Below are positions 21,223 through 28,829 of a stretch of DNA of 64,000 bases, in pieces (the first letter of the stretch is position 1; each line of letters opens with the position of its first letter). The notes under the pieces are model-generated. The model was not told where the DNA came from. It did not search any database and saw only the letters and a list, made by a program, of their open reading frames with translations. The stretch comes from Escherichia coli. GTDB taxonomy: Bacteria > Pseudomonadota > Gammaproteobacteria > Enterobacterales > Enterobacteriaceae. The translations under genes and the position numbers were made by a program. The stretch lies in the NCBI RefSeq assembly GCF_050320075.1, contig NZ_CP190018.1. The stretch is one strand, 5' to 3'.

Positions 21223-21485
21223 GCGTCGTACCCCCGTTTGCGTCCGGCAATGCGCCCGGCCATCCATGCGGTGACTTCAGAGTGCAGCCAGGCCACATTT
21301 TTACCGCCAAGACTCACCTGCGGCGGAAATTCCCCTTTACGGATGAGTTCATAGATGGTCGAGCGTGACAGGCCGCACAGGTGCATCACTTCCGGCAGAC
21401 GTAAAAAACGCTCCTGCGTGATGTCCGGCAGCGGCATCAGTGGCGTCACAGGGGCGGGAGACGGGGAAGAAAAAACAGCTTGCAT
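21219..21485 (-). CDS. AlpA/Vis-family small DNA-binding regulator (excision/integration control)
   Basis: 88-aa ORF; HTH signature [48 protein letters not shown]; true start could be an internal Met. Confidence 0.75.
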
Positions 21486-21764
21486 CGGGCTACCTCGTTA
21501 ATGTCCATACAGCACCGGATAAGTCCGTCCGGCTTCGGGTAGCGCTTTATTTTGTGAATATTTTCAGCAGACGCAACAGGGGGGATTTGTTCCGGCAGTC
21601 TTACAATGGCTGTGTATTTTTTGTTCATCTCCACTTAAAGTCATTTAAAGCCACTTAAAGCAATTCGTAATTTTTATAGTGAAATACAAATCGTTTTTTC
21701 TTATTCATTCCCGGCGAATTAATAAAAACAAACAGTAATAAACAGCACAAAAAGCCCATCAACG

Positions 21765-21868
21765 GGTGAACAGTGGTGAACAGACGGTGAACAGTCATTA
21801 CTGCGATTGTTCACCCTTTAACTTACTGTATTACTTATCTTTTTTATTAAGGTGAACAGAGGTGAACA
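21765..21868. promoter_or_regulatory. cluster of six P4 type-I iterons, crr- or ori-like
   Basis: GGTGAACA at 21765, 21775, 21786, 21851 and 21861 (10-11 bp phasing) plus inverted TGTTCACC at 21808-21815; between the vis-like gene and sid. Confidence 0.65.
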
Positions 21869-22038
21869 GTAAAATATAAAAAAAACAAACAGTAAGCCGG
21901 TTTTTCCTGCGACCTTTTCCTGGCTTGCCGGTCTGAGGATGAGTCTCCTGTGTCAGGGCTGGCACATCTGCAATGCGTCGTGTTGTTGTCCGGTGTACGT
22001 CACAATTTTCTTAACCTGAAGTGACGAGGAGCCGGAAA

Positions 22039-22773
22039 ATGTCTGACAACACCATCCCTGAATATCTGCAACCCGCGCTGGCACAACTGGAAAAGGCCAG
22101 AGCCGCCCATCTTGAGAACGCCCGCCTGATGGATGAGACCGTCACGGCCATTGAACGGGCAGAACAGGAAAAAAATGCGCTGGCGCAGGCCGACGGAAAC
22201 GACGCTGACGACTGGCGCACGGCCTTTCGTGCAGCCGGTGGTGTCCTGAGCGACGAGCTGAAACAGCGCCACATTGAGCGCGTGGCACGCCGGGAGCTGG
22301 TACAGGAATATGACAATCTGGCCGTGGTGCTGAATTTTGAACGTGAACGCCTGAAAGGGGCGTGTGACAGCACGGCCACCGCCTACCGGAAGGCACATCA
22401 TCACCTGCTGAGTCTGTATGCAGAGCATGAGCTGGAACACGCCCTGAATGAAACCTGTGAGGCGCTTGTCCGGGCAATGCATCTGAGCATCCAGGTACAG
22501 GAAAATCCGCTCGCCAACACCACCGGCCATCAGGGCTACGTCGCGCCGGAAAAGGCTGTCATGCAGCAGGTGAAATCATCGCTGGAGCAGAAAATTAAAC
22601 AGATGCAAATCAGCCTCACCGGCGAGCCGGTTCTCCGGCTGACCGGACTGTCAGCGGCAACACTCCCGCACATGGATTATGAGGTGGCAGGCACACCGGC
22701 ACAGCGCAAGGTGTGGCAGGACAAAATAGACCAGCAGGGAGCAGAGCTTAAGGCCAGAGGACTGCTGTCATGA
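22039..22773 (+). CDS. sid: P4 Sid-like capsid size determination (external scaffold) protein
   Basis: 244 aa from ATG 22039 (MSDNTIPEYLQPALAQLEKARAAH...), SD GAGGAG 7 nt upstream; ORF track has a GTG start at 22021. Confidence 0.85.
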   Translation: MSDNTIPEYLQPALAQLEKARAAHLENARLMDETVTAIERAEQEKNALAQADGNDADDWRTAFRAAGGVLSDELKQRHIERVARRELVQEYDNLAVVLNFERERLKGACDSTATAYRKAHHHLLSLYAEHELEHALNETCEALVRAMHLSIQVQENPLANTTGHQGYVAPEKAVMQQVKSSLEQKIKQMQISLTGEPVLRLTGLSAATLPHMDYEVAGTPAQRKVWQDKIDQQGAELKARGLLS

Positions 22774-23270
22774 TTTACTGCCCGTCGTGTGGACATGTTG
22801 CTCACACCCGTCGCGCACATTTCATGGACGATGGCACCAAGATAATGATTGCACAGTGCCGGAATATTTATTGCTCTGCGACATTTGAAGCGAGTGAAAG
22901 CTTTTTCTCTGACAGTAAAGATTCAGGAATGGAATACATTTCAGGCAAACAGAGATACCGCGATTCACTGACGTCGGCCTCCGGCAGTATGAAACGCCCG
23001 AAAAGAATGCTTGTTACCGGATATTGTTGTCGGAGATGTAAAGGCCTTGCGCTGTCAAGAACATCGCGGCGTCTGTCTCAGGAAGTCACCGAGCGTTTTT
23101 ATGTGTGCACGGATCCGGGCTGTGGTCTGGTGTTTAAAACGCTTCAGACCATCACCCGCTTCATTGTCCGCCCGGTCACGCCGGACGAACTGGCAGAAAA
23201 CCTGCATGAAAAACAGGAACTGCCGCCAGTACGGTTAAAAACACAATCATATTCGCTGCGTCTGGAATGA
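22770..23270 (+). CDS. delta: P4 Delta-like late transcription activator (tandem Ogr-type zinc fingers)
   Basis: 166 aa; two Cys4 motifs CPSCGHVAH...CRNIYCSATFEASESF and CRRCKG...CTDPGCGLVF; start overlaps sid stop (ATGA). Confidence 0.85.
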   Translation: MIYCPSCGHVAHTRRAHFMDDGTKIMIAQCRNIYCSATFEASESFFSDSKDSGMEYISGKQRYRDSLTSASGSMKRPKRMLVTGYCCRRCKGLALSRTSRRLSQEVTERFYVCTDPGCGLVFKTLQTITRFIVRPVTPDELAENLHEKQELPPVRLKTQSYSLRLE

Positions 23271-23343
23271 GGGCTGCCGGTTAACACCGGCCGTCGCCAC
23301 ACACCGTATTTTTATTCTTCAGCATGATGAGAAAGAGATAACG

Positions 23344-23916
23344 ATGGAAAGCACAGCCTTACAGCAGGCCTTTGACACCTGTCAGAATAACAAAGCAGCA
23401 TGGCTGCAACGCAAAAATGAGCTGACTGCGGCCGAACAGGAATATCTGCGGCTTCTGTCAGGAGAAGGCAGAAACGTCAGTCACCTGGACGAATTACGCA
23501 ATATTATCGAAGTCAGAAAATGGCAGGTGAATCAGGCCGCCGGTCGTTATATTCGTTCGCATGAAGCCGTTCAGCACATCAGCATCCGCGACCGGCTGAA
23601 TGATTTTATGCAGCAGCACGGCACAGTACTGGCGGCCGCACTGGCACCGGAGCTGATGGGCTACAGTGAGCTGACGGCCATTGCCCGAAACTGTGCCATA
23701 CAGCGTGCCACAGATGCCCTGCGTGAAGCCCTTCTGTCCTGGCTTGCGAAGGGTGAAAAAATTAATTATTCCGTACAGGATAGCGACATTTTAACGACCA
23801 TCGGATTCAGGCCTGACGCGGCTTCGGTGGATGACAGCCGTGAAAAATTCACCCCTGCGCAGAACATGATTTTTTCGCGCAAAAGTGCGCAACTGGCATC
23901 ACATCAGTCTGTGTAA
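23344..23916 (+). CDS. psu: P4 Psu-like polarity suppression protein
   Basis: 190-aa ORF following delta, just upstream of cos; length and order as in P4. Confidence 0.85.
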   Translation: MESTALQQAFDTCQNNKAAWLQRKNELTAAEQEYLRLLSGEGRNVSHLDELRNIIEVRKWQVNQAAGRYIRSHEAVQHISIRDRLNDFMQQHGTVLAAALAPELMGYSELTAIARNCAIQRATDALREALLSWLAKGEKINYSVQDSDILTTIGFRPDAASVDDSREKFTPAQNMIFSRKSAQLASHQSV

Positions 23917-23952
23917 AACTCCCCGAAAATCCGCCCGTTTTTACTGAAAAAA

Positions 23953-23980
23953 GCCATGCATCGATAAGGTGCATGGCTTT
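23953..23980 (+). terminator. hairpin after psu (possible terminator)
   Basis: GCCATGCA tcgataagg TGCATGGC stem-loop followed by TTT. Confidence 0.4.
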
Positions 23981-24080
23981 GCATGCGTTTTCCTGCCTCA
24001 TTTTCTGCAAACCGTGCCATTCCCGGCGCGGTCTGAGCGTGTCAGTACAACTGCATTAAAACCGCCCCGCAAAGCGGGCG

Positions 24081-24099
24081 GGCGAGGCGGGGAAAGCAC
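24081..24099. other. cos site: 19-nt P2/P4-type cohesive-end sequence
   Basis: GGCGAGGCGGGGAAAGCAC matches the P2/186/P4 cohesive-end sequence as I recall it; lies just downstream of psu. Confidence 0.7.
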
Positions 24100-24349
24100 C
24101 GCGCGCTAAACCTGATGAATAAGGAATATTTTAAAAACATTTGTGGATATGAATATTTGGGTTGTAAATGAGTGTTTTTATCTGTTTTTATGTGCTGTGA
24201 AGCAATGTTTGAGTCGATATTTTTATAAAGCTCAATAAAAATTACATTATCATTGATAAGAATGGTTGTCGGATTAACACGTTTTTAAGCTATTTATATA
24301 TAATTAAACCTCGGCAAGGTTGCTGAGGTTTAATCGATTGGTTAATTAT

Positions 24350-27076
24350 TTAGTTGATTAGGTGTGACTCAGTTGCAGAGTGACCTTTTTTTGTCCTAAC
24401 AAACTTGATAGCAAGTGTTTTTCCTCTAATGTAATTAGACCAGTTATATTTTTCTTCACCAAGGCAACTGTCCCTATGAATTAATATTTCTTTTCCATCA
24501 GAATCTCTGGCAAAAACAAATCCTTTTCCTAATGTAAGATCTGAATATATTTCTGCTATAGAATATCCATTATTTTTCCATGTGATTTGTTCGAATTCGG
24601 CAATTGTTTTAGATGAGCTAAAAGCACTCCATTTGGGGGAGGTGAATGGGTTGTTTGGTATTTTTGTTGCTCTCATTGTTGAAATGATATTAACTACTTC
24701 TTTACTTGATATCTTAAAATCTTTAGAGAACTTTGTAATGTCGGCAAGATTGCTTTCAGCAAAATCAATTACTTTTATAATGAATTGTTGAGATAGTTTA
24801 TCAATGTTGTTTTTGATCGTGTCACAAAAAAGATTTAAAGATTTAATAGCTTCGTCAGAAAGTCGATCGCTGATGTTTTCTTTTTCAAATATAAATTCCA
24901 ATATGTCGATAACTTCAGATATGTTTTTTTCTACAGACTCAGGGTTAATGTCGAAGTTATTTTCACAAGAACGCTTTAATGCGGCGACTCTAAAGTAAGC
25001 TTGCTCTTGAGGTGAATGTGAATCTTTCCATTTTTCAGTGTATTCAAGAATGTCTGGGTATTCTTTACCATAAAGATGAACACCTAAATACTCTCGCATT
25101 ATTATAGAAGACAGTACTTCGCCTGAATGCTCAACTCTGTCGAATCCAGAATCAATCAATTCCTGAGATACTTTTTGAGCCTCTATAAAATCACCAATAT
25201 CTTTATAGATATACATCAGAGTTAAGTTGTTTAGTGGATTTTCAGACTCTATGCCTATTGCTGACTTTATACAAGAAATAGCACCTAAATTATCACCCTG
25301 CTTATGTAGTATTCTGGCATATGTTCGCATAAATAGAGGATTTTTTTGATATATTTGAGCGAGTGTTTTAAAATCCTCATAAATAACATTTAATTTATCT
25401 TTGTTAACGCTTTTGTAGCCTAAAATTTTATTTGCTCTGTTAACAGCTATTTGCAAGGAGTCAGGGCTATTATTAGGGATGAATCGATAATCAAACCGAT
25501 CTATTTCTTTATCTTGTTGGAATTTTTGTAAGTGCAATATTTCAGTTCGTTGTTTTCTTGCTTTTTCAGCAATAATGTTTCTGACGGTGTTATTTCTTGG
25601 TGATGTGATTAATAGTTCTTTGATTGATTCACTTAAAGAAAACTCTTCTTCTCCCGTATTAGATGTTTTCCGGGATACTAAAGATGTGTTCAATATTTCT
25701 TTAATCGCTTTTGCTATTGAGTCGGGATCTGAATCTAAGAAATGAGTTAAAAATGATCTTGATGATGCTCCGGTGACAAACAAGCATTCAAGAATAGATA
25801 TTGCATCGTTACTTAAAACATCTAATAGATTATTAAATGAAAATGCAGCGATATCTTTTTTGGATTTTTCTATTGAGTCAGGTAAAGCCATTCCATTATA
25901 AATGGAATCTATTGTAAGCCTTATTGCTAAGGGGTTAAAATGAGTCACTTCAGTAATTCTCGTGAGTTCTTCTGGGGTTAAGTTTATTATCCCTCGTTTA
26001 TCTGAATATGATTTGGCTAGATGGAAAGCCACACCAGATTGCAATTCCTTAAGTGAAATTGGGTAAGCTCCGTCAACCATTATTCGACTAGTGACTACCA
26101 CTTTAAAATTCGAAGGAAGAGTATACTGGAAACGAATGAACTCATCAGGACCATCTCTTAATAAAGTTTCGAGATTATCGATACATAGGAGAGTGCTTTC
26201 TATATCTTGGTCGTTTATAATTTCTGAATATAGATCATCATAGTTTTCTATCTCTTCATCAGGATTAAAAAACTCCACTATTTCTTTTTTTATTTCAGAA
26301 ATGGTGTCAATGTTTTTTAACTCAGAAATACCATCAGCAGTGAGATGATGTTTCTTTAATGTTAAATAGCAAATGTTTTTGAATTTCTCATTGGCTTTTG
26401 GTGAGATGCTCAATTCTTTTAAGAAATCTAAAATTAAAGCGGTTTTTCCTACGCCTCCAGGAGCTACAACCGCAATGAATGGAGTTCGATCGTTATTTAT
26501 TGCTGATAATAACTCTTTCTTTTCACCTTTACGGCCTATAAGGCTGGTAATGTCGTGATCAAATTTATCAGGCAGGTTGTTATTAATTTCCCAGCTAATA
26601 GTAGAAAACCATTCTTCTGGAGGTGCTTTTAATTGACCAGTAGATGCGGAATAATAAGCATCCTTCACACTTTTTAAACCAAGTACTTCTATATATGGAT
26701 GTGAGGCTATAGCTGCAGCGCAATGCCAGTAATGCTCATGGAATGGTCGGGTTGGATGACTAATTTGATTTCTTATAAAAAATAAATCAACAGCTGTACA
26801 GAACTCTTTCAGTTCTGACAGTTTATCATAGTCAGATGTACCCTTAGCTAATTGCAGGGCATAATTGAAAATTTCACCGATATAACTTGCTTGGATAAGA
26901 GTTTGCGTATTGAAAACGGGACCTCTCCCACGCTCCAGTTCTAGTTTAGAACGAGGTTCGAAATGTTCGCTTAACCTACTTTTACCTCCTGCATCCTCAC
27001 TAACAACATACGCCGCCAATGCTTTTTCTAAGGCATAAACTATCATACTAGTTTTCGTATCAAGATATTCAGACAT
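24350..27076 (-). CDS. STAND/NB-ARC-type P-loop NTPase with N-terminal Rx4H domain, helical repeats and C-terminal cold-shock-like OB-fold segment; candidate anti-phage defence cargo
   Basis: 908-aa ORF with AAGGA SD 6 nt upstream; Walker A IAVVAPGGVGKT (nt 26441-26458), Walker B TLLCIDNLE, sensor-I-like KVVVTSR, GLPL-like HFNPLAI; AT-rich; sits between cos/psu and int. Confidence 0.85.
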   Translation of the reverse strand: MSEYLDTKTSMIVYALEKALAAYVVSEDAGGKSRLSEHFEPRSKLELERGRGPVFNTQTLIQASYIGEIFNYALQLAKGTSDYDKLSELKEFCTAVDLFFIRNQISHPTRPFHEHYWHCAAAIASHPYIEVLGLKSVKDAYYSASTGQLKAPPEEWFSTISWEINNNLPDKFDHDITSLIGRKGEKKELLSAINNDRTPFIAVVAPGGVGKTALILDFLKELSISPKANEKFKNICYLTLKKHHLTADGISELKNIDTISEIKKEIVEFFNPDEEIENYDDLYSEIINDQDIESTLLCIDNLETLLRDGPDEFIRFQYTLPSNFKVVVTSRIMVDGAYPISLKELQSGVAFHLAKSYSDKRGIINLTPEELTRITEVTHFNPLAIRLTIDSIYNGMALPDSIEKSKKDIAAFSFNNLLDVLSNDAISILECLFVTGASSRSFLTHFLDSDPDSIAKAIKEILNTSLVSRKTSNTGEEEFSLSESIKELLITSPRNNTVRNIIAEKARKQRTEILHLQKFQQDKEIDRFDYRFIPNNSPDSLQIAVNRANKILGYKSVNKDKLNVIYEDFKTLAQIYQKNPLFMRTYARILHKQGDNLGAISCIKSAIGIESENPLNNLTLMYIYKDIGDFIEAQKVSQELIDSGFDRVEHSGEVLSSIIMREYLGVHLYGKEYPDILEYTEKWKDSHSPQEQAYFRVAALKRSCENNFDINPESVEKNISEVIDILEFIFEKENISDRLSDEAIKSLNLFCDTIKNNIDKLSQQFIIKVIDFAESNLADITKFSKDFKISSKEVVNIISTMRATKIPNNPFTSPKWSAFSSSKTIAEFEQITWKNNGYSIAEIYSDLTLGKGFVFARDSDGKEILIHRDSCLGEEKYNWSNYIRGKTLAIKFVRTKKGHSATESHLIN

Positions 27077-27094
27077 ATATGATCCTTGTTCAAA

Positions 27095-28282
27095 TTAAAG
27101 AGTGGTTTGCAATCCCCACCAATTCATTAACTCTATACGTTGTTCTAAATAGGTACTTCTATTGTAAGCTTTTCGAACCTCATTCCTCTCGGAATGCGCC
27201 AATGCTGCTTCAATAACATCAGGATTAAATTCTGCTTCGTTCATTGCCGTACTGGCAATTGATCTTAGTCCATGGGCCACTAACTTACCGCCATAACCTA
27301 TTCTCTTCAAGGCAGCGTTTGCCGTCTGACTGTTCATCGGCTGTTTTGGATCGTTTCTGCTCGGGAAAATATGTTCACGGTGACCACTGATAGGCTTCAT
27401 TACTTCCAAAATACCTAAAGCCTGAGGTGACAAAGGGACAATGTGTTCACGTTTAGCCTTCATTCGTTCGGCGGGAATCGTCCAGAGTTTGGCCTCGAGA
27501 TCGATCTCGACCCACCGAGCACCAGAAGCCTCAGAAGGGCGCACTAGGGTCAGGAGCTGCCACTCGATAAGACAGCGAGTCGGAACAGACAGATTCGACA
27601 TTACCAGAGAACGCATCAGCTTAGGTAATTCTTCGGGTCGTAGCGTGGGCATATTCTGCTTTTTGGGTTTCTCAAATGCCATTCCAACACCTGATGCTGG
27701 ATTTGCATCAATTAGACCAGTGTTTACGGCATAAATCATTATCTCGTTAATGCGCTGTACCAGACGACGTACCGTCTCTAGCGCGCCACGTGCTTTGATT
27801 GGTTCGAGGGTTTCAACAAGTGTTCGGGCTTTGATTTGCTGAACAGGGAGCTCACCGATGGCAGGTAATACATCTTTTTCCAGGGAACGCCAAATGTCTT
27901 TCGCGTAATCAGGGGTAACGCTTTTGCTTTTTATCTGGAACCAGTTGGTCGCAACAGTCGAAAAAATACTGTCTAGAGCTATCTGTTGTTGTTCTTCGAT
28001 AAATTCAGCTTGAACTTGTGGGTCTATACCATTAGCCAACAAAGCAAGGTAATCCGCTCTTAACCGTCGAGCATCAGCAAGTGAAAGGGCGGGGAAAGCA
28101 CCAAGCCCCATCATTGTCCGCTGTTTTGTTGCTGGACGTTGATAACGGAAACGCCACAACTTCTTACCGTTCGTTTTAACGAGCAGAAAAAGGCCATCGC
28201 CATCATGTAACGTTAGATCCTTTTCTAACGCTTTAGCGCGCAGAACTTCGGTGTTGGTCAGGGGGCGTGTTGTTCTTGCCAC
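27095..28282 (-). CDS. int: tyrosine site-specific integrase (P4/CP4-57 IntA type), ssrA-specific
   Basis: 395-aa ORF with GTG start; catalytic motifs AHGLRSIA and KAYNRSTYLE; next to the ssrA 3' end. Confidence 0.9.
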   Translation of the reverse strand: MARTTRPLTNTEVLRAKALEKDLTLHDGDGLFLLVKTNGKKLWRFRYQRPATKQRTMMGLGAFPALSLADARRLRADYLALLANGIDPQVQAEFIEEQQQIALDSIFSTVATNWFQIKSKSVTPDYAKDIWRSLEKDVLPAIGELPVQQIKARTLVETLEPIKARGALETVRRLVQRINEIMIYAVNTGLIDANPASGVGMAFEKPKKQNMPTLRPEELPKLMRSLVMSNLSVPTRCLIEWQLLTLVRPSEASGARWVEIDLEAKLWTIPAERMKAKREHIVPLSPQALGILEVMKPISGHREHIFPSRNDPKQPMNSQTANAALKRIGYGGKLVAHGLRSIASTAMNEAEFNPDVIEAALAHSERNEVRKAYNRSTYLEQRIELMNWWGLQTTL

Positions 28283-28466: not shown

Positions 28467-28481
28467 TGGTGGAGCTGGCGG
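28467..28481. repeat. attL-side direct repeat (ssrA 3' terminus)
   Basis: TGGTGGAGCTGGCGG, identical to 16764-16778. Confidence 0.75.
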
Positions 28482-28829
28482 GAGTTGAACCCGCGTCCGA
28501 AATTCCTACGTCCTCGGTACTACATGCTTAGTCAGTCTTTACATTCGCTTGCCAGCTGCGGACGGACACGCCACTAACAAACTAGCCTGATTAAGTTTTA
28601 ACGCTTCAACCCCAGGCAGGGCTTCCACGCGATCTCTTTTGGGTTTGACCTCTCTTGATCCCCGTCCTAAGAGCGGAGGCTAGGGAGAGAGGGCTCTAAG
28701 CAGGTTATTAAGCTGCTAAAGCGTAGTTTTCGTCGTTTGCGACTATTTTTTGCGGCTTTTTACGAGGCCAACCGCCCCTCGGCATGCACCTTGGGTTTCG
28801 CAAATCCCGTCGAATCCAGAATCAGCCCC
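28467..28829 (-). ncRNA. ssrA: tmRNA (SsrA), 363 nt
   Basis: Reverse complement reads GGGGCTGATTCTGGATTCGACGGGATTTGCGAAACCCAAGGTGCATGCC...GGTTCAACTCCCGCCAGCTCCACCA. Confidence 0.95.

What the first reader, a model, noticed from the sequence alone, without database searches (positions are those of the whole stretch)
24100..27094. Compositional discontinuity: AT-rich cargo inside a GC-rich P4 core
By eye the 908-aa gene and its 3' flank are markedly AT-rich (runs of A/T, AAA/AAT/ATT-rich codons), while the flanking int, psu/delta/sid and primase are GC-rich. This suggests the cargo was acquired separately from the satellite backbone, as expected for hotspot exchange. I did not compute GC percentages.
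Basis: seen in the sequence. Interest (0 to 1): 0.4.

Follow-up and report, generated by a model that had tools for sequence, protein, structure and literature searches.

The report
AT-rich defence cargo in P4 satellite
The AT-rich block is real and fills the known swappable slot between the packaging site and the integrase of a P4-type phage satellite in E. coli; it holds one uncharacterised NLR-like gene, probably an RNA-cutting anti-phage sensor, so it is an ordinary example of a known phenomenon carrying an untested gene.

Summary
Observation confirmed. The 908-aa ORF (24350-27076, minus strand) has GC 0.339 and GC3 0.256. The P4 core has GC 0.56 and the primase GC3 is 0.71. Synonymous codon usage differs strongly (chi2 526, 41 df). 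GC steps down within about 100 bp at 24100.

The window is E. coli, with a P4-like satellite (att repeats at 16764-16778 and 28467-28481) integrated at ssrA. Its core (16922-24080) is 98.5% identical to phage P4 and 98% identical to sister elements. Homology stops 26 nt past the cos cut (24080/24081) and resumes at about 27113. Sister elements and P4 itself carry different, equally AT-rich genes in this slot. This is the cos-adjacent psu-int defence hotspot of Rousset et al. 2022, whose Table S1A already lists this exact protein as 'hypothetical'.

- int is not GC-rich (0.469). It is mosaic, and this int allele occurs only in the seven genomes that carry this cargo.
- AT-richness does not show recent import. 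Homologues in five hosts all keep GC 0.32-0.38, and orthologues in Yersinia and Pantoea occupy the same slot.

The cargo has four parts: a HEPN-like domain (invariant RNxxxH), an Apaf-1/NB-ARC-type STAND NTPase, a TPR-like solenoid and an OB-like domain. It is probably an Avs-like abortive-infection RNase, but this is untested.

The parts
16764..16778 (.). Left att repeat (TGGTGGAGCTGGCGG), a duplicate of the ssrA 3' end. It marks the left boundary of the satellite.
   Evidence: A 15-bp exact direct repeat with 28467-28481.
16922..24080 (.). Conserved P4 core. It contains crr, the alpha primase-helicase, DUF5375/cnr, epsilon, the CI/C4 RNA region, sid, delta and psu, up to the cos cut.
   Evidence: 98.5% identical to P4 NC_001609 positions 4469-11624 and 98.0-98.3% identical to L002 and L003. 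Pfam hits are and the RefSeq annotation.
17091..19424 (-). Alpha primase-helicase (777 aa), GC 0.611 and GC3 0.711. It is the GC-rich reference for the comparison.
   Evidence: Pfam Zn_Ribbon_Prim, Toprim_3, D5_N and Pox_D5; composition.
22039..23916 (+). The sid (22039-22773), delta (22770-23270) and psu (23344-23916) operon.
   Evidence: Pfam Ogr_Delta and Psu (E = 1.7e-87); annotation.
24081..24106 (+). cos. The 19-nt cohesive end GGCGAGGCGGGGAAAGCAC is at 24081-24099. The next 7 nt are still shared with P4, and the conserved sequence ends at 24106.
   Evidence: P4 record bases 1-26 are identical to window 24081-24106, and the last P4 base (11624) corresponds to window 24080.
24107..27112 (.). 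Variable, AT-rich hotspot slot (GC about 0.35). It holds a single cargo gene, its 3' flank and the last 6 codons of int.
   Evidence: Homology to L002, L003, L004 and P4 is lost between 24106/7 and 27113-27115. GC profile.
24306..24331 (-). Terminator-like hairpin (AAACCTCAGCAACCTTGCCGAGGTTT, followed by an A/T-rich tail) 18 nt downstream of the cargo stop codon.
   Evidence: Read directly from the sequence. The consensus scan did not call it because it lacks a clean T-run, and it is not conserved in Yersinia or Pantoea.
24350..27076 (-). Cargo gene: a 908-aa protein (RefSeq WP_089620504) with HEPN-like, STAND NTPase, TPR-like and OB-like parts.
   Evidence: ORF and translation. Family alignment. 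AF2 model with pLDDT 83.6. Listed in Rousset et al. Table S1A.
26597..27076 (-). N-terminal helical domain (aa 1-160) with invariant R102-N103-x3-H107. Predicted to be a HEPN-type RNase effector.
25607..26545 (-). STAND NTPase module (aa 178-490). It has Walker A APGGVGKT (205-212), Walker B CIDNLE (298-303), TSR (329-331), NPLAIRL (381-387) and a winged helix.
   Evidence: Invariant columns. Foldseek matches to Apaf-1, CED-4, NRC4, Roq1, Cdc6/Orc1 and Avs5 at E = 1e-6 to 5e-4. Sub-threshold Pfam hits to AAA_16 and nSTAND1.
24572..25591 (-). Alpha-helical, TPR-like solenoid (aa 496-835). Predicted to be the sensor region.
   Evidence: AF2 secondary structure with pLDDT 85-95. Pfam TPR families are recorded for homologues. 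Foldseek finds TPR proteins.
24356..24562 (-). C-terminal small beta domain (aa 839-907) with a b1-b2-b3-helix-b4-b5 order, which is OB-like (cold-shock/S1-like).
   Evidence: AF2 secondary structure. No significant sequence match. hhalign against CspA is in register but gives only 6% probability. The 2013 HEPN survey describes S1/cold-shock OB domains in this architecture.
27083..27087 (-). Shine-Dalgarno AAGGA, 6 nt upstream of the cargo ATG, within the 18-nt int-cargo spacer (27077-27094). No terminator lies between int and the cargo.
   Evidence: Read from the sequence. No terminator was called there.
27095..28282 (-). Tyrosine integrase (395 aa), GC 0.469. It is mosaic, and this allele is found only with this cargo.
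   Evidence: Pfam Phage_integrase, Phage_int_M and Arm-DNA-bind_3. Linkage to the cargo. Identity gradient.
28467..28829 (-). ssrA (tmRNA). Its 3' end (28467-28481) is the right att core.
   Evidence: ARAGORN, Rfam RF00023 at 292.8 bits and the repeat.

Best explanation
The AT-rich block is the cargo of the known defence hotspot of P4-like phage satellites, which lies between cos/psu and int. Here it sits in a satellite integrated at E. coli ssrA.

Shown:
- The core is almost identical to P4.
- The slot is replaced wholesale between otherwise 98%-identical elements.
- One junction is fixed 26 nt from the cos cut. The other lies at or inside the 3' part of int.

Inferred: the exchange follows the model of Rousset et al. 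2022. One recombination event occurs at the cos end and a second, homologous crossover occurs in int or att. The result is that an int-cargo arm moves between satellite backbones.

AT-richness is a stable property of hotspot cargo in general, and of this gene family in every host examined. It is not a trace of a recent AT-rich donor.

The cargo is one 908-aa NLR-like (STAND) protein. Its parts are an N-terminal HEPN-like domain with an invariant RNxxxH motif, an Apaf-1/NB-ARC-type NTPase with intact Walker A, Walker B and sensor motifs, a TPR-like solenoid and a C-terminal OB-like barrel.

Inferred mechanism, by analogy with Avs proteins and other bacterial NLRs:
1. The solenoid and OB region bind a phage-derived ligand.
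2. Nucleotide-dependent oligomerisation brings the HEPN domains together, and HEPN RNases need dimerisation to be active.
3. RNA cleavage arrests the infected cell or blocks phage gene expression. This protects the host population and the resident satellite.
For: Hotspot and exchange:
- GC and codon statistics.
- 98.5% identity to P4 up to the cos cut, with 26 nt shared after it.
- 98% identical backbones carrying different cargo in L002 and L003, and different cargo again in L004 and P4.
- The cargo is in 7 of 5426 genomes and the psu-side flank in 2237.
- The int allele is linked to the cargo and int is mosaic.
- Among the 7 carriers the arm is 99.6-100% identical, while whole-element identity falls to 98.3%.
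- The hotspot, its position next to cos and the recombination model are published. This protein is listed there as a hotspot occupant.

Persistent AT-richness:
- All four slots and P4's own slot have GC 0.34-0.375.
- Homologues have GC 0.316-0.384 against flanks of 0.47-0.57 in four other genera.

Protein:
- Invariant catalytic and NTPase motifs across 35 members that are only about 35% identical.
- AF2 model with pLDDT 83.6.
- Foldseek matches to Apaf-1, CED-4, NRC4, Roq1 and the Avs5 filament.
- The only Pfam families outside the NTPases that recur in weak hits are HEPN families.
- The architecture HEPN + STAND + TPR + S1/cold-shock OB was described computationally in the Swt1-like HEPN clade.
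- The Klebsiella homologue lies next to McrBC and a type I R-M system.
- TIR-, SIR2- and nuclease-STAND-TPR proteins from this same hotspot were shown or proposed to defend against phage.
Against: - No experiment on this protein or its family was found.
- PADLOC v2 gives only a weak P-loop hit to candidate PDC-S27, and PHROGs and NCBIfam give nothing useful. The protein is therefore not a recognised Avs type.
- The OB assignment rests on topology only.
- The N-domain occurs almost only in this one architecture. It therefore lacks the shuffling among contexts that usually marks effector modules.
- The trigger and the RNA target are unknown.
- The crossover inside int is inferred from an identity gradient. 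No parental sequence was identified.
Confidence: 0.72

Rival explanations
1. The AT-rich gene is a recent import from a low-GC donor, for example Bacteroidota or another AT-rich lineage. It has not yet drifted toward E. coli/P4 composition, so its composition records its origin.
For: The GC3 gap is large (0.256 against 0.711). Many family members come from Bacteroidota and marine Gammaproteobacteria. The gene is rare in E. coli, in 7 of 5426 genomes.
Against: - The closest relatives (60% aa identity) are in Pantoea and Yersinia, in the same int-to-cos slot of ssrA-integrated P4-like satellites. Bacteroidota relatives are only about 35% identical.
- At 60% aa identity synonymous sites are saturated. 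Even so, all orthologues keep GC3 of 0.23-0.29 beside primases with GC3 of 0.62-0.72.
- Klebsiella and Alcanivorax copies are also AT-rich in flanks of 56-57% GC.
- Unrelated cargo in the same slot, including P4's own gop/beta/cII, has the same GC.
Confidence: 0.1
2. The cargo is a STAND-type regulator or addiction module that serves the satellite itself, for example by controlling helper exploitation, excluding competing satellites or stabilising the element. It is not an anti-phage immune sensor, and its N-domain is a non-catalytic helical adaptor.
For: - Many STAND clades are not defence-related (Lee et al. 2026).
- The gene is 18 nt downstream of int with no terminator between them, so it may be co-expressed with int.
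- Fold evidence for HEPN is modest.
- The N-domain is specific to this family.
Against: - R102, N103 and H107 are invariant across members that are only about 30-35% identical. This fits a catalytic motif as defined for HEPN RNases and is not expected of an adaptor.
- The family also occurs outside satellites. The Klebsiella copy is in an McrBC/type I R-M island and the Alcanivorax copy is next to NERD/UvrD/DUF2726 genes. Its function therefore does not depend on P4.
- 6 of 8 randomly chosen unknown occupants of P4 slots protected against phage.
Confidence: 0.12
3. The compositional dip mainly reflects the amino-acid composition of a Lys/Asn/Ile/Phe-rich repeat protein. It is not a distinct nucleotide-level history or a nucleotide-level constraint.
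For: F, Y, M, I, N and K make up 34% of residues, against 20% in primase. GC1 and GC2 are also low, at 0.43 and 0.34.
Against: - GC3 is the most depressed position (0.256), and synonymous choices alone differ at chi2 = 526.
- The non-coding 3' flank 24107-24349 is even more AT-rich, at 0.25-0.32.
- The step coincides with a homology breakpoint.
Confidence: 0.04

Closest known systems
P4-like satellite defence hotspot between psu/cos and int (Rousset et al. 2022, Cell Host Microbe, PMC9122126; Moura de Sousa & Rocha 2022, PMC8628076; 2026 preprint 10.64898/2026.02.27.708500)
   Same: - The same element type, with a core 98.5% identical to P4.
- The same slot, directly next to cos and bounded by int.
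- A single-gene cargo replaced between near-identical backbones.
- The exact protein WP_089620504 is in their Table S1A.
   Different: Nothing about the locus differs in kind. I add base-level junctions (24106/7 and about 27113), the exclusive linkage of this int allele with this cargo, and composition data. Those papers do not discuss GC. The protein was listed as 'hypothetical' and was not among the tested systems.
Avs / bacterial NLR-like antiviral STAND NTPases (Gao et al. 2020 and 2022, recalled from my own knowledge and not read here; Lee et al. 2026, PMC12803255; the TIR-STAND-TPR protein from the P4 hotspot in Rousset et al. 2022)
   Same: A three-part layout of N-terminal effector, central STAND NTPase and C-terminal TPR-like sensor. 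It is a single-gene system on mobile elements. Structural matches include the Avs5 filament and the Apaf-1/NLR cores.
   Different: - It is not detected by the AVAST/Avs models in PADLOC v2.
- It is much shorter, at 908 aa.
- The predicted effector is a HEPN RNase, not a DNase, SIR2 or TIR domain.
- It has an extra C-terminal OB-like barrel.
- Neither a trigger nor a defence phenotype has been shown.
Swt1-like HEPN fused to 'STAND-ATPase, TPR, S1' (Anantharaman et al. 2013, Biol Direct 8:15, Table 1; examples Npun_F6454, MED222_16016, Desac_1927)
   Same: The same domain order and content as found here. The weak Pfam hits are to HEPN_Swt1 specifically, and Vibrio members are abundant in this family.
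   Different: That description is purely computational. I could not fetch the named examples to confirm that they are homologous to this family, so the match is by architecture only.
AbiF/AbiD (Abi_2) HEPN abortive-infection proteins (PbAbiF-ncRNA structure, PDB 8vz6)
   Different: AbiF is a stand-alone protein about 300 aa long that is controlled by a cognate ncRNA. Here no structured RNA was found in the slot, and control is presumably by the fused STAND and sensor modules. There is no sequence-level similarity.

Membership tests
P4-like satellite (psu-int / cos-adjacent defence hotspot) | The P4 core gene set in P4 order: int, psu, delta, sid, the immunity region with CI RNA, epsilon and the alpha primase. 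| tested here: met
   Pfam hits for Psu, Ogr_Delta, the derepression protein, Ash, DUF5375 and the primase-helicase. C4/CI RNA found by Rfam. 98.5% DNA identity to P4 over 7.2 kb.
P4-like satellite (psu-int / cos-adjacent defence hotspot) | A P2/P4 cos site next to the variable region. | tested here: met
   P4 bases 1-26 are identical to window 24081-24106, and variability starts at 24107.
P4-like satellite (psu-int / cos-adjacent defence hotspot) | The slot content differs between elements whose backbones are otherwise near-identical. | tested here: met
   L002 and L003 have 98% identical backbones with unrelated genes in the slot, and so do L004 and P4. Other sister elements carry SIR2 or NACHT genes there.
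P4-like satellite (psu-int / cos-adjacent defence hotspot) | Site-specific integration flanked by att direct repeats. | tested here: met
   A 15-bp repeat at 16764-16778 and 28467-28481, the latter being the 3' end of ssrA.
STAND NTPase (Apaf-1/NB-ARC-like clade) | P-loop NTPase core with Walker A, Walker B and a sensor-1 arginine. | tested here: met
   GGxGKT at 207-212, D300/E303 and T329-S330-R331 are invariant in 35 sequences.
STAND NTPase (Apaf-1/NB-ARC-like clade) | NBD, helical domain and winged-helix arrangement, with a GxP-like motif in the helical domain. | tested here: met
   NPLAIRL (381-387) is invariant. The AF2 model matches Apaf-1, CED-4, NRC4 and Roq1 over 350-600 columns at E = 1e-6 to 4e-5.
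STAND NTPase (Apaf-1/NB-ARC-like clade) | A match to a curated family HMM above its threshold. | tested here: not met
   AAA_16 scores 22.9 bits against a cut-off of 32.6. nSTAND1 scores 19.9 bits against 27.1. Some homologues do carry precomputed ATPase_2, AAA_16 or NB-ARC hits.
Avs (antiviral STAND) systems | Recognised by the published AVAST/Avs type I-V profile models. | tested here: not met
   PADLOC-DB v2 returns only a weak hit to PDC-S27 (E = 2.6e-4) over residues 178-221, just upstream of and into the P-loop region.
Avs (antiviral STAND) systems | The layout effector - STAND - C-terminal repeat sensor. | tested here: met
   Domain map from the AF2 model and the alignment.
Avs (antiviral STAND) systems | Anti-phage activity, and activation by a specific phage protein. 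| not testable with these tools
   No experimental record was found. Membership in Avs7-24 or in the 198 defence clades of Lee et al. could not be checked because no supplementary files are held.
HEPN RNase superfamily (Swt1/Abi2-like) | A conserved Rx4-6H motif with a polar residue immediately after the R. | tested here: met
   R102-N103-x3-H107 is invariant in three alignments. The motif definition is from Anantharaman et al. 2013.
HEPN RNase superfamily (Swt1/Abi2-like) | An all-alpha HEPN fold. | tested here: inconclusive
HEPN RNase superfamily (Swt1/Abi2-like) | A significant profile match to a HEPN family. | tested here: not met
   Only sub-threshold hits were found. HEPN_Swt1 was hit by 4 of 40 members (best E = 0.097) and HEPN_MAE_28990 by 1 of 40 (E = 0.01). 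The profile found no PDB match.
HEPN RNase superfamily (Swt1/Abi2-like) | Metal-independent RNase activity. | not testable with these tools
   This needs biochemistry.
Cold-shock/S1-like OB fold (C-terminal domain) | A five-stranded barrel in the order b1-b2-b3-helix-b4-b5. | tested here: met
   In the AF2 model the strands are 839-845, 853-858, 863-867, 887-895 and 898-907, and the helix is 873-876. pLDDT is 82-90.
Cold-shock/S1-like OB fold (C-terminal domain) | Sequence or profile similarity to CSD/S1, including the RNP motifs. | tested here: inconclusive
   hhalign against CspA (sequence recalled from memory) aligns in register but gives 5.9% probability. BLASTP finds an 18-residue match at E = 0.004 for a single comparison. 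Pfam and PDB give no hit. The KGFVF motif of the E. coli copy is not conserved in the family.

The most novel reading that the evidence does not exclude
The cargo may define an uncharacterised family of compact bacterial NLR-like immune sensors. The family is small, about 240 clusters at 50% identity, and its architecture is fixed. The effector would be a HEPN RNase. The C-terminal OB-like barrel, working with the TPR solenoid, would let the protein sense a nucleic acid (phage RNA or ssDNA). The Avs proteins characterised so far sense folded phage proteins. A further point is that its extreme AT-richness, which holds in every host, may be selected for, for example to allow H-NS-type silencing of a toxic gene. 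In that case it would not be a relic of transfer.
Probability: 0.2. Interest if true: 0.65.

Novelty: new member of a known kind. Interest (0 to 1): 0.3.

Why it matters
For the scan, this finding closes cleanly. The compositional discontinuity is real. It maps to the base onto the published cos-adjacent P4 hotspot, and the locus, including this protein accession, is already catalogued.

What remains useful:
1. There is a concrete, untested single-gene defence candidate. Its motifs (R102/H107, K211, D300/E303) can be mutated directly. It belongs to a family that PADLOC v2 does not detect, and it could add an RNase-armed member to the bacterial NLR/Avs repertoire.
2. There is a caution for genome scanning. 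In satellite hotspots, AT-richness marks the class 'mobile defence cargo'. It does not mark recency of transfer or the donor lineage.
3. There is base-level evidence for the recombination model proposed for these hotspots. One exchange junction lies 26 nt from the cos cut and the other probably lies inside int.

Tried and rejected
- Sequence-only annotation of the cargo gave nothing above threshold in Pfam, NCBIfam, PHROGs, PADLOC and PDB searches.
- Profile searches with the N- and C-domain alignments gave nothing significant against PDB or Pfam. The PDB 'hits' for the C-domain were antibody framework segments, which are chance matches.
- Foldseek with the N-domain model returned only generic helical bundles. 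The afdb50 library was unavailable.
- I checked whether the tested 'HEPN-TPR' system (pFR83) of Rousset et al. is this protein. It is not: the sequence is different and has no STAND module.
- I checked whether the 2026 preprint's new systems (Reve, Toga and others) include this protein. Neither the accession nor the sequence was found.
- I checked for the protein in the supplements of Lee et al. 2026, but no files are held.
- I tested whether the cargo-proximal part of int is specifically closer to the Pantoea and Yersinia ints, which would show co-transfer from that lineage. It is about equally distant from all ints. This supports mosaicism but identifies no donor.
- I looked for an AbiF-like partner ncRNA or any Rfam family in the slot and found none.
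- The E. coli 3' flank is not conserved in the orthologous loci, apart from the cos box.
- I rejected amino-acid composition alone as the cause of the GC dip, because of the synonymous-site test.
-, which compared two alignments of the same domain, added nothing.

Full report
**1. The observation**

A sliding GC profile and direct counts confirm a deep AT-rich trough.
- The 908-aa ORF at 24350-27076 (minus strand) has GC 0.339, with GC1/2/3 of 0.426/0.336/0.256.
- The rest of the element has GC 0.54. Primase is 0.611 (GC3 0.711), sid 0.584, psu 0.522 and delta 0.495.
- It is the lowest 2727-bp window in the 64 kb, at 0.330. Windows that do not overlap it have a mean of 0.498 and sd of 0.053.

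Codon usage gives the same answer.
- Pooled over amino acids, synonymous codon usage differs from the backbone genes with chi2 = 526 on 41 df.
- A/T-ending codons make up 74% of the cargo and 35% of the backbone.
- In 100-bp windows GC drops from 0.50-0.61 to 0.25-0.32 at about 24100. The int side is a ramp.

- int is not GC-rich. Its GC is 0.469, below the window mean.
- A second AT-rich block exists at about 5.5-12 kb.

**2. What the locus is**

- The window is E. coli chromosome. The 3.2-kb cargo region tested is 100% identical to strains YZLc1-3 and Ec-U3.
- ARAGORN and Rfam place ssrA at 28467-28829.
- A 15-bp direct repeat (TGGTGGAGCTGGCGG) at 16764-16778 and 28467-28481 bounds the element.
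- Pfam and the RefSeq annotation give the full P4 gene set.
- The core 16922-24080 is 98.5% identical to phage P4 itself.
- The linear P4 record ends at window 24080 and starts at 24081 with the 19-nt cohesive end GGCGAGGCGGGGAAAGCAC. The sequence stays identical for 26 nt and then diverges completely.

**3. Is it a swapped slot?**

I fetched three other ssrA-integrated P4-like elements.
- L002 and L003 share 98.0-98.3% identity with the window from 16922 to 24106/7. They have no detectable similarity across 24107-27112, and similarity resumes at 27113-27115.
- In that slot L002 has two hypothetical genes, L003 has a 2.7-kb 'restriction endonuclease' and L004 has three genes including a STAS-like one. 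P4 has gop/beta/cII.
- Further sister elements carry SIR2 or NACHT genes there.
- Only 7 of 5426 complete E. coli genomes have this cargo, while 2237 have the psu-side flank.

This is the hotspot described by Rousset et al. 2022.
- They note that it lies directly next to cos.
- They propose exchange by recombination at cos ends plus a second homologous crossover.
- Their Table S1A lists this exact protein (WP_089620504) as a single 'hypothetical' occupant of a P4 hotspot.
- It was not among their tested systems. The tested 'HEPN-TPR' is a different protein.
- It does not appear in the supplements of the 2026 follow-up preprint.

**4. Refinements to the interpretation**

*(a) int belongs to the variable arm.*
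- The int allele occurs at 99.9-100% identity only in the same seven genomes. The next closest allele is 87% identical.
- DNA identity to L002 and L003 is 0.67-0.79 next to the cargo and rises to at least 0.94 near att.
- At the protein level the arm-binding N-terminus is 97-98% identical to the sister ints. The C-terminal third is 78-88% identical to all ints compared, including those of other genera.
- This fits a crossover inside int.
- Among the seven carriers the arm is 99.6-100% identical, while whole-element identity falls to 98.3%. The backbones therefore differ more than the arm does.

*(b) AT-richness does not date or source the transfer.*
- All slots examined are AT-rich (0.342, 0.367, 0.375, 0.348, and 0.359 for P4). 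Their cores are at 0.56 and their ints at 0.45-0.47.
- Orthologues of the cargo (59-62% aa identity) lie immediately downstream of int in ssrA-integrated P4-like satellites of Yersinia canariae and Pantoea agglomerans. A cos-like box follows the gene in both.
- Those orthologues keep GC 0.316 and 0.347 (GC3 0.229 and 0.288), beside primases with GC3 of 0.62 and 0.72.
- Cargo and primase are diverged to the same degree between genera, about 59-60% aa identity. This fits long co-residence, but two different proteins need not evolve at the same rate.
- The more distant Klebsiella and Alcanivorax homologues are also AT-rich (0.348 and 0.384) in flanks of 0.56-0.57.

The composition is therefore a stable property of the gene family, and of hotspot cargo in general. 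I did not determine its cause. Candidates are selection for silencing, an AT bias on mobile elements, and continual circulation within an AT-rich pool.

**5. The cargo protein**

Library HMMs give only sub-threshold AAA_16 and nSTAND1 hits, plus a weak PADLOC PDC-S27 hit over residues 178-221. PHROGs and NCBIfam give nothing useful.

Homologues are full-length proteins of about 890-930 aa. They are about 35% identical and come from Bacteroidota, Vibrio, Shewanella, Acinetobacter, Klebsiella and others. In a 35-sequence alignment the following are invariant:
- R102, N103 and H107
- the Walker A motif (205-212)
- D300 and E303
- T329-S330-R331
- NPLAIRL (381-387)

An AF2 model with mean pLDDT 83.6 shows five parts:
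- a helical N-domain (1-160)
- an alpha/beta NTPase
- helical and winged-helix modules
- a long alpha-solenoid (496-835)
- a five-stranded C-terminal barrel with a helix between b3 and b4 (839-907)

Foldseek matches Apaf-1, NRC4, CED-4, Roq1, Cdc6/Orc1 and the Avs5 filament. The core is therefore an NB-ARC-type STAND NTPase.

The N-domain was modelled alone at pLDDT 88.
- Foldseek finds nothing significant.
- Across 40 N-domain sequences, the only weak Pfam hits outside the NTPase families that recur are HEPN_Swt1 (4 sequences) and HEPN_MAE_28990 (1 sequence).
- The invariant motif fits the published definition of the HEPN active site, Rx4-6H with a polar residue after the R.
- The same survey lists, within the Swt1-like clade, fusions to 'STAND-ATPase, TPR, S1', and mentions N-terminal HEPN + STAND + C-terminal cold-shock-like OB proteins. 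That is the architecture found here.

I therefore treat the HEPN assignment as likely but not proven. I treat the OB assignment as resting on topology only.

A profile of the N-domain finds only 242 representative clusters among 1.84 billion proteins. Nearly all of them have the full-length architecture. The family is small, its architecture is fixed, and the domain is not shuffled among other contexts.

The genomic context supports a defence role.
- The gene sits in the P4 hotspot.
- The Klebsiella copy lies beside McrBC and a type I R-M system.
- The Alcanivorax copy lies beside NERD/UvrD/DUF2726 genes.

**6. Mechanism**

Shown: the domain layout, the intact catalytic and NTPase motifs, and the hotspot and defence-island locations.

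Inferred by analogy with Avs/NLR systems and with HEPN biology:
- A ligand binds the solenoid and OB region.
- This triggers nucleotide-dependent oligomerisation.
- Oligomerisation brings the HEPN domains together and activates RNA cleavage.
- The result is abortive infection or growth arrest.

The gene has its own Shine-Dalgarno sequence (AAGGA, 27083-27087). It lies 18 nt after the int stop codon with no terminator between them, and a hairpin follows its own stop codon. Co-transcription with int is possible but untested.

**7. Verdict**

The phenomenon is already published and this very protein is catalogued, so the finding is ordinary for a specialist. The remaining interest is the cargo itself. 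It is an experimentally untouched HEPN-STAND-TPR-OB protein that PADLOC v2 does not detect, and I class it as a new member of a known kind. There is a modest chance that it senses nucleic acid instead of protein. Interest score: 0.3.

Noticed in passing
window 5500-12000: A second AT-rich block (GC 0.33-0.41) lies upstream of ypjA. By transfer of the RefSeq annotation it holds an 'alpha amylase C-terminal domain' protein (about 5996-8248, minus strand), a tRNA at 8808-8883, YpjCB-family genes (about 9640-11094) and a recombinase pseudogene fragment (about 11476-11622). It looks like a degraded island at a tRNA gene.
   Followed up: partly
window 8808-8883 (+): ARAGORN calls this tRNA-Met (anticodon CAT), but RefSeq annotates the same gene as tRNA-Ile. 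It is presumably the lysidine-modified ileX/ileY type.
   Followed up: no
window 16925-17045: The satellite in the window has only one copy of the 120-bp crr repeat, the cis-required replication region. P4 and the otherwise near-identical element in strain YZLc1-3 have two. This accounts for a length difference of about 180 bp. It could be a repeat-mediated deletion or an assembly collapse, and it might affect plasmid-mode replication.
   Followed up: partly
window 27095-28282 (-): The integrase is a mosaic. aa 1-60 are 97-98% identical to other E. coli ssrA-type ints but about 70-75% identical to the L004, Yersinia and Pantoea ints. aa 150-210 are 97-100% identical to the L004 and Pantoea ints. 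The C-terminal tail after the conserved 'WWG' differs in length and sequence in every element.
   Followed up: partly
window 20875-21160 (-): The standard P4 immunity RNAs are present: C4/CI antisense RNA (20875-20962), an isrK-like RNA (21070-21147) and the a1/b1 target (21108-21160). The immunity region therefore appears intact.
   Followed up: no
L005 11731-12013 and L007 11731-12105: The Yersinia and Pantoea satellites that carry the orthologous cargo have no annotated psu (delta follows directly). Their cos-like boxes differ from the P4 sequence, for example a GGCGTGGCGGGGATAGCAT-like box in Pantoea that resembles my recollection of the phage 186 cos. This suggests they use different helper phages.
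   Followed up: no
window 24062-24081 (-): A GC-rich hairpin (CCGCCCGCTTTGCGGGGCGG followed by a T-run) lies immediately on the psu side of the cos cut and was called terminator-like on the minus strand. It would terminate transcription coming from the cargo side before it enters psu, or it may be part of the cos recognition region.
   Followed up: no
L010 13907-20760: In Klebsiella pneumoniae the 35%-identical homologue sits about 2 kb from McrBC and a type I R-M system. About 2 kb of unannotated DNA with intermediate GC (0.476) lies upstream of the gene, and I did not examine it.
   Followed up: no
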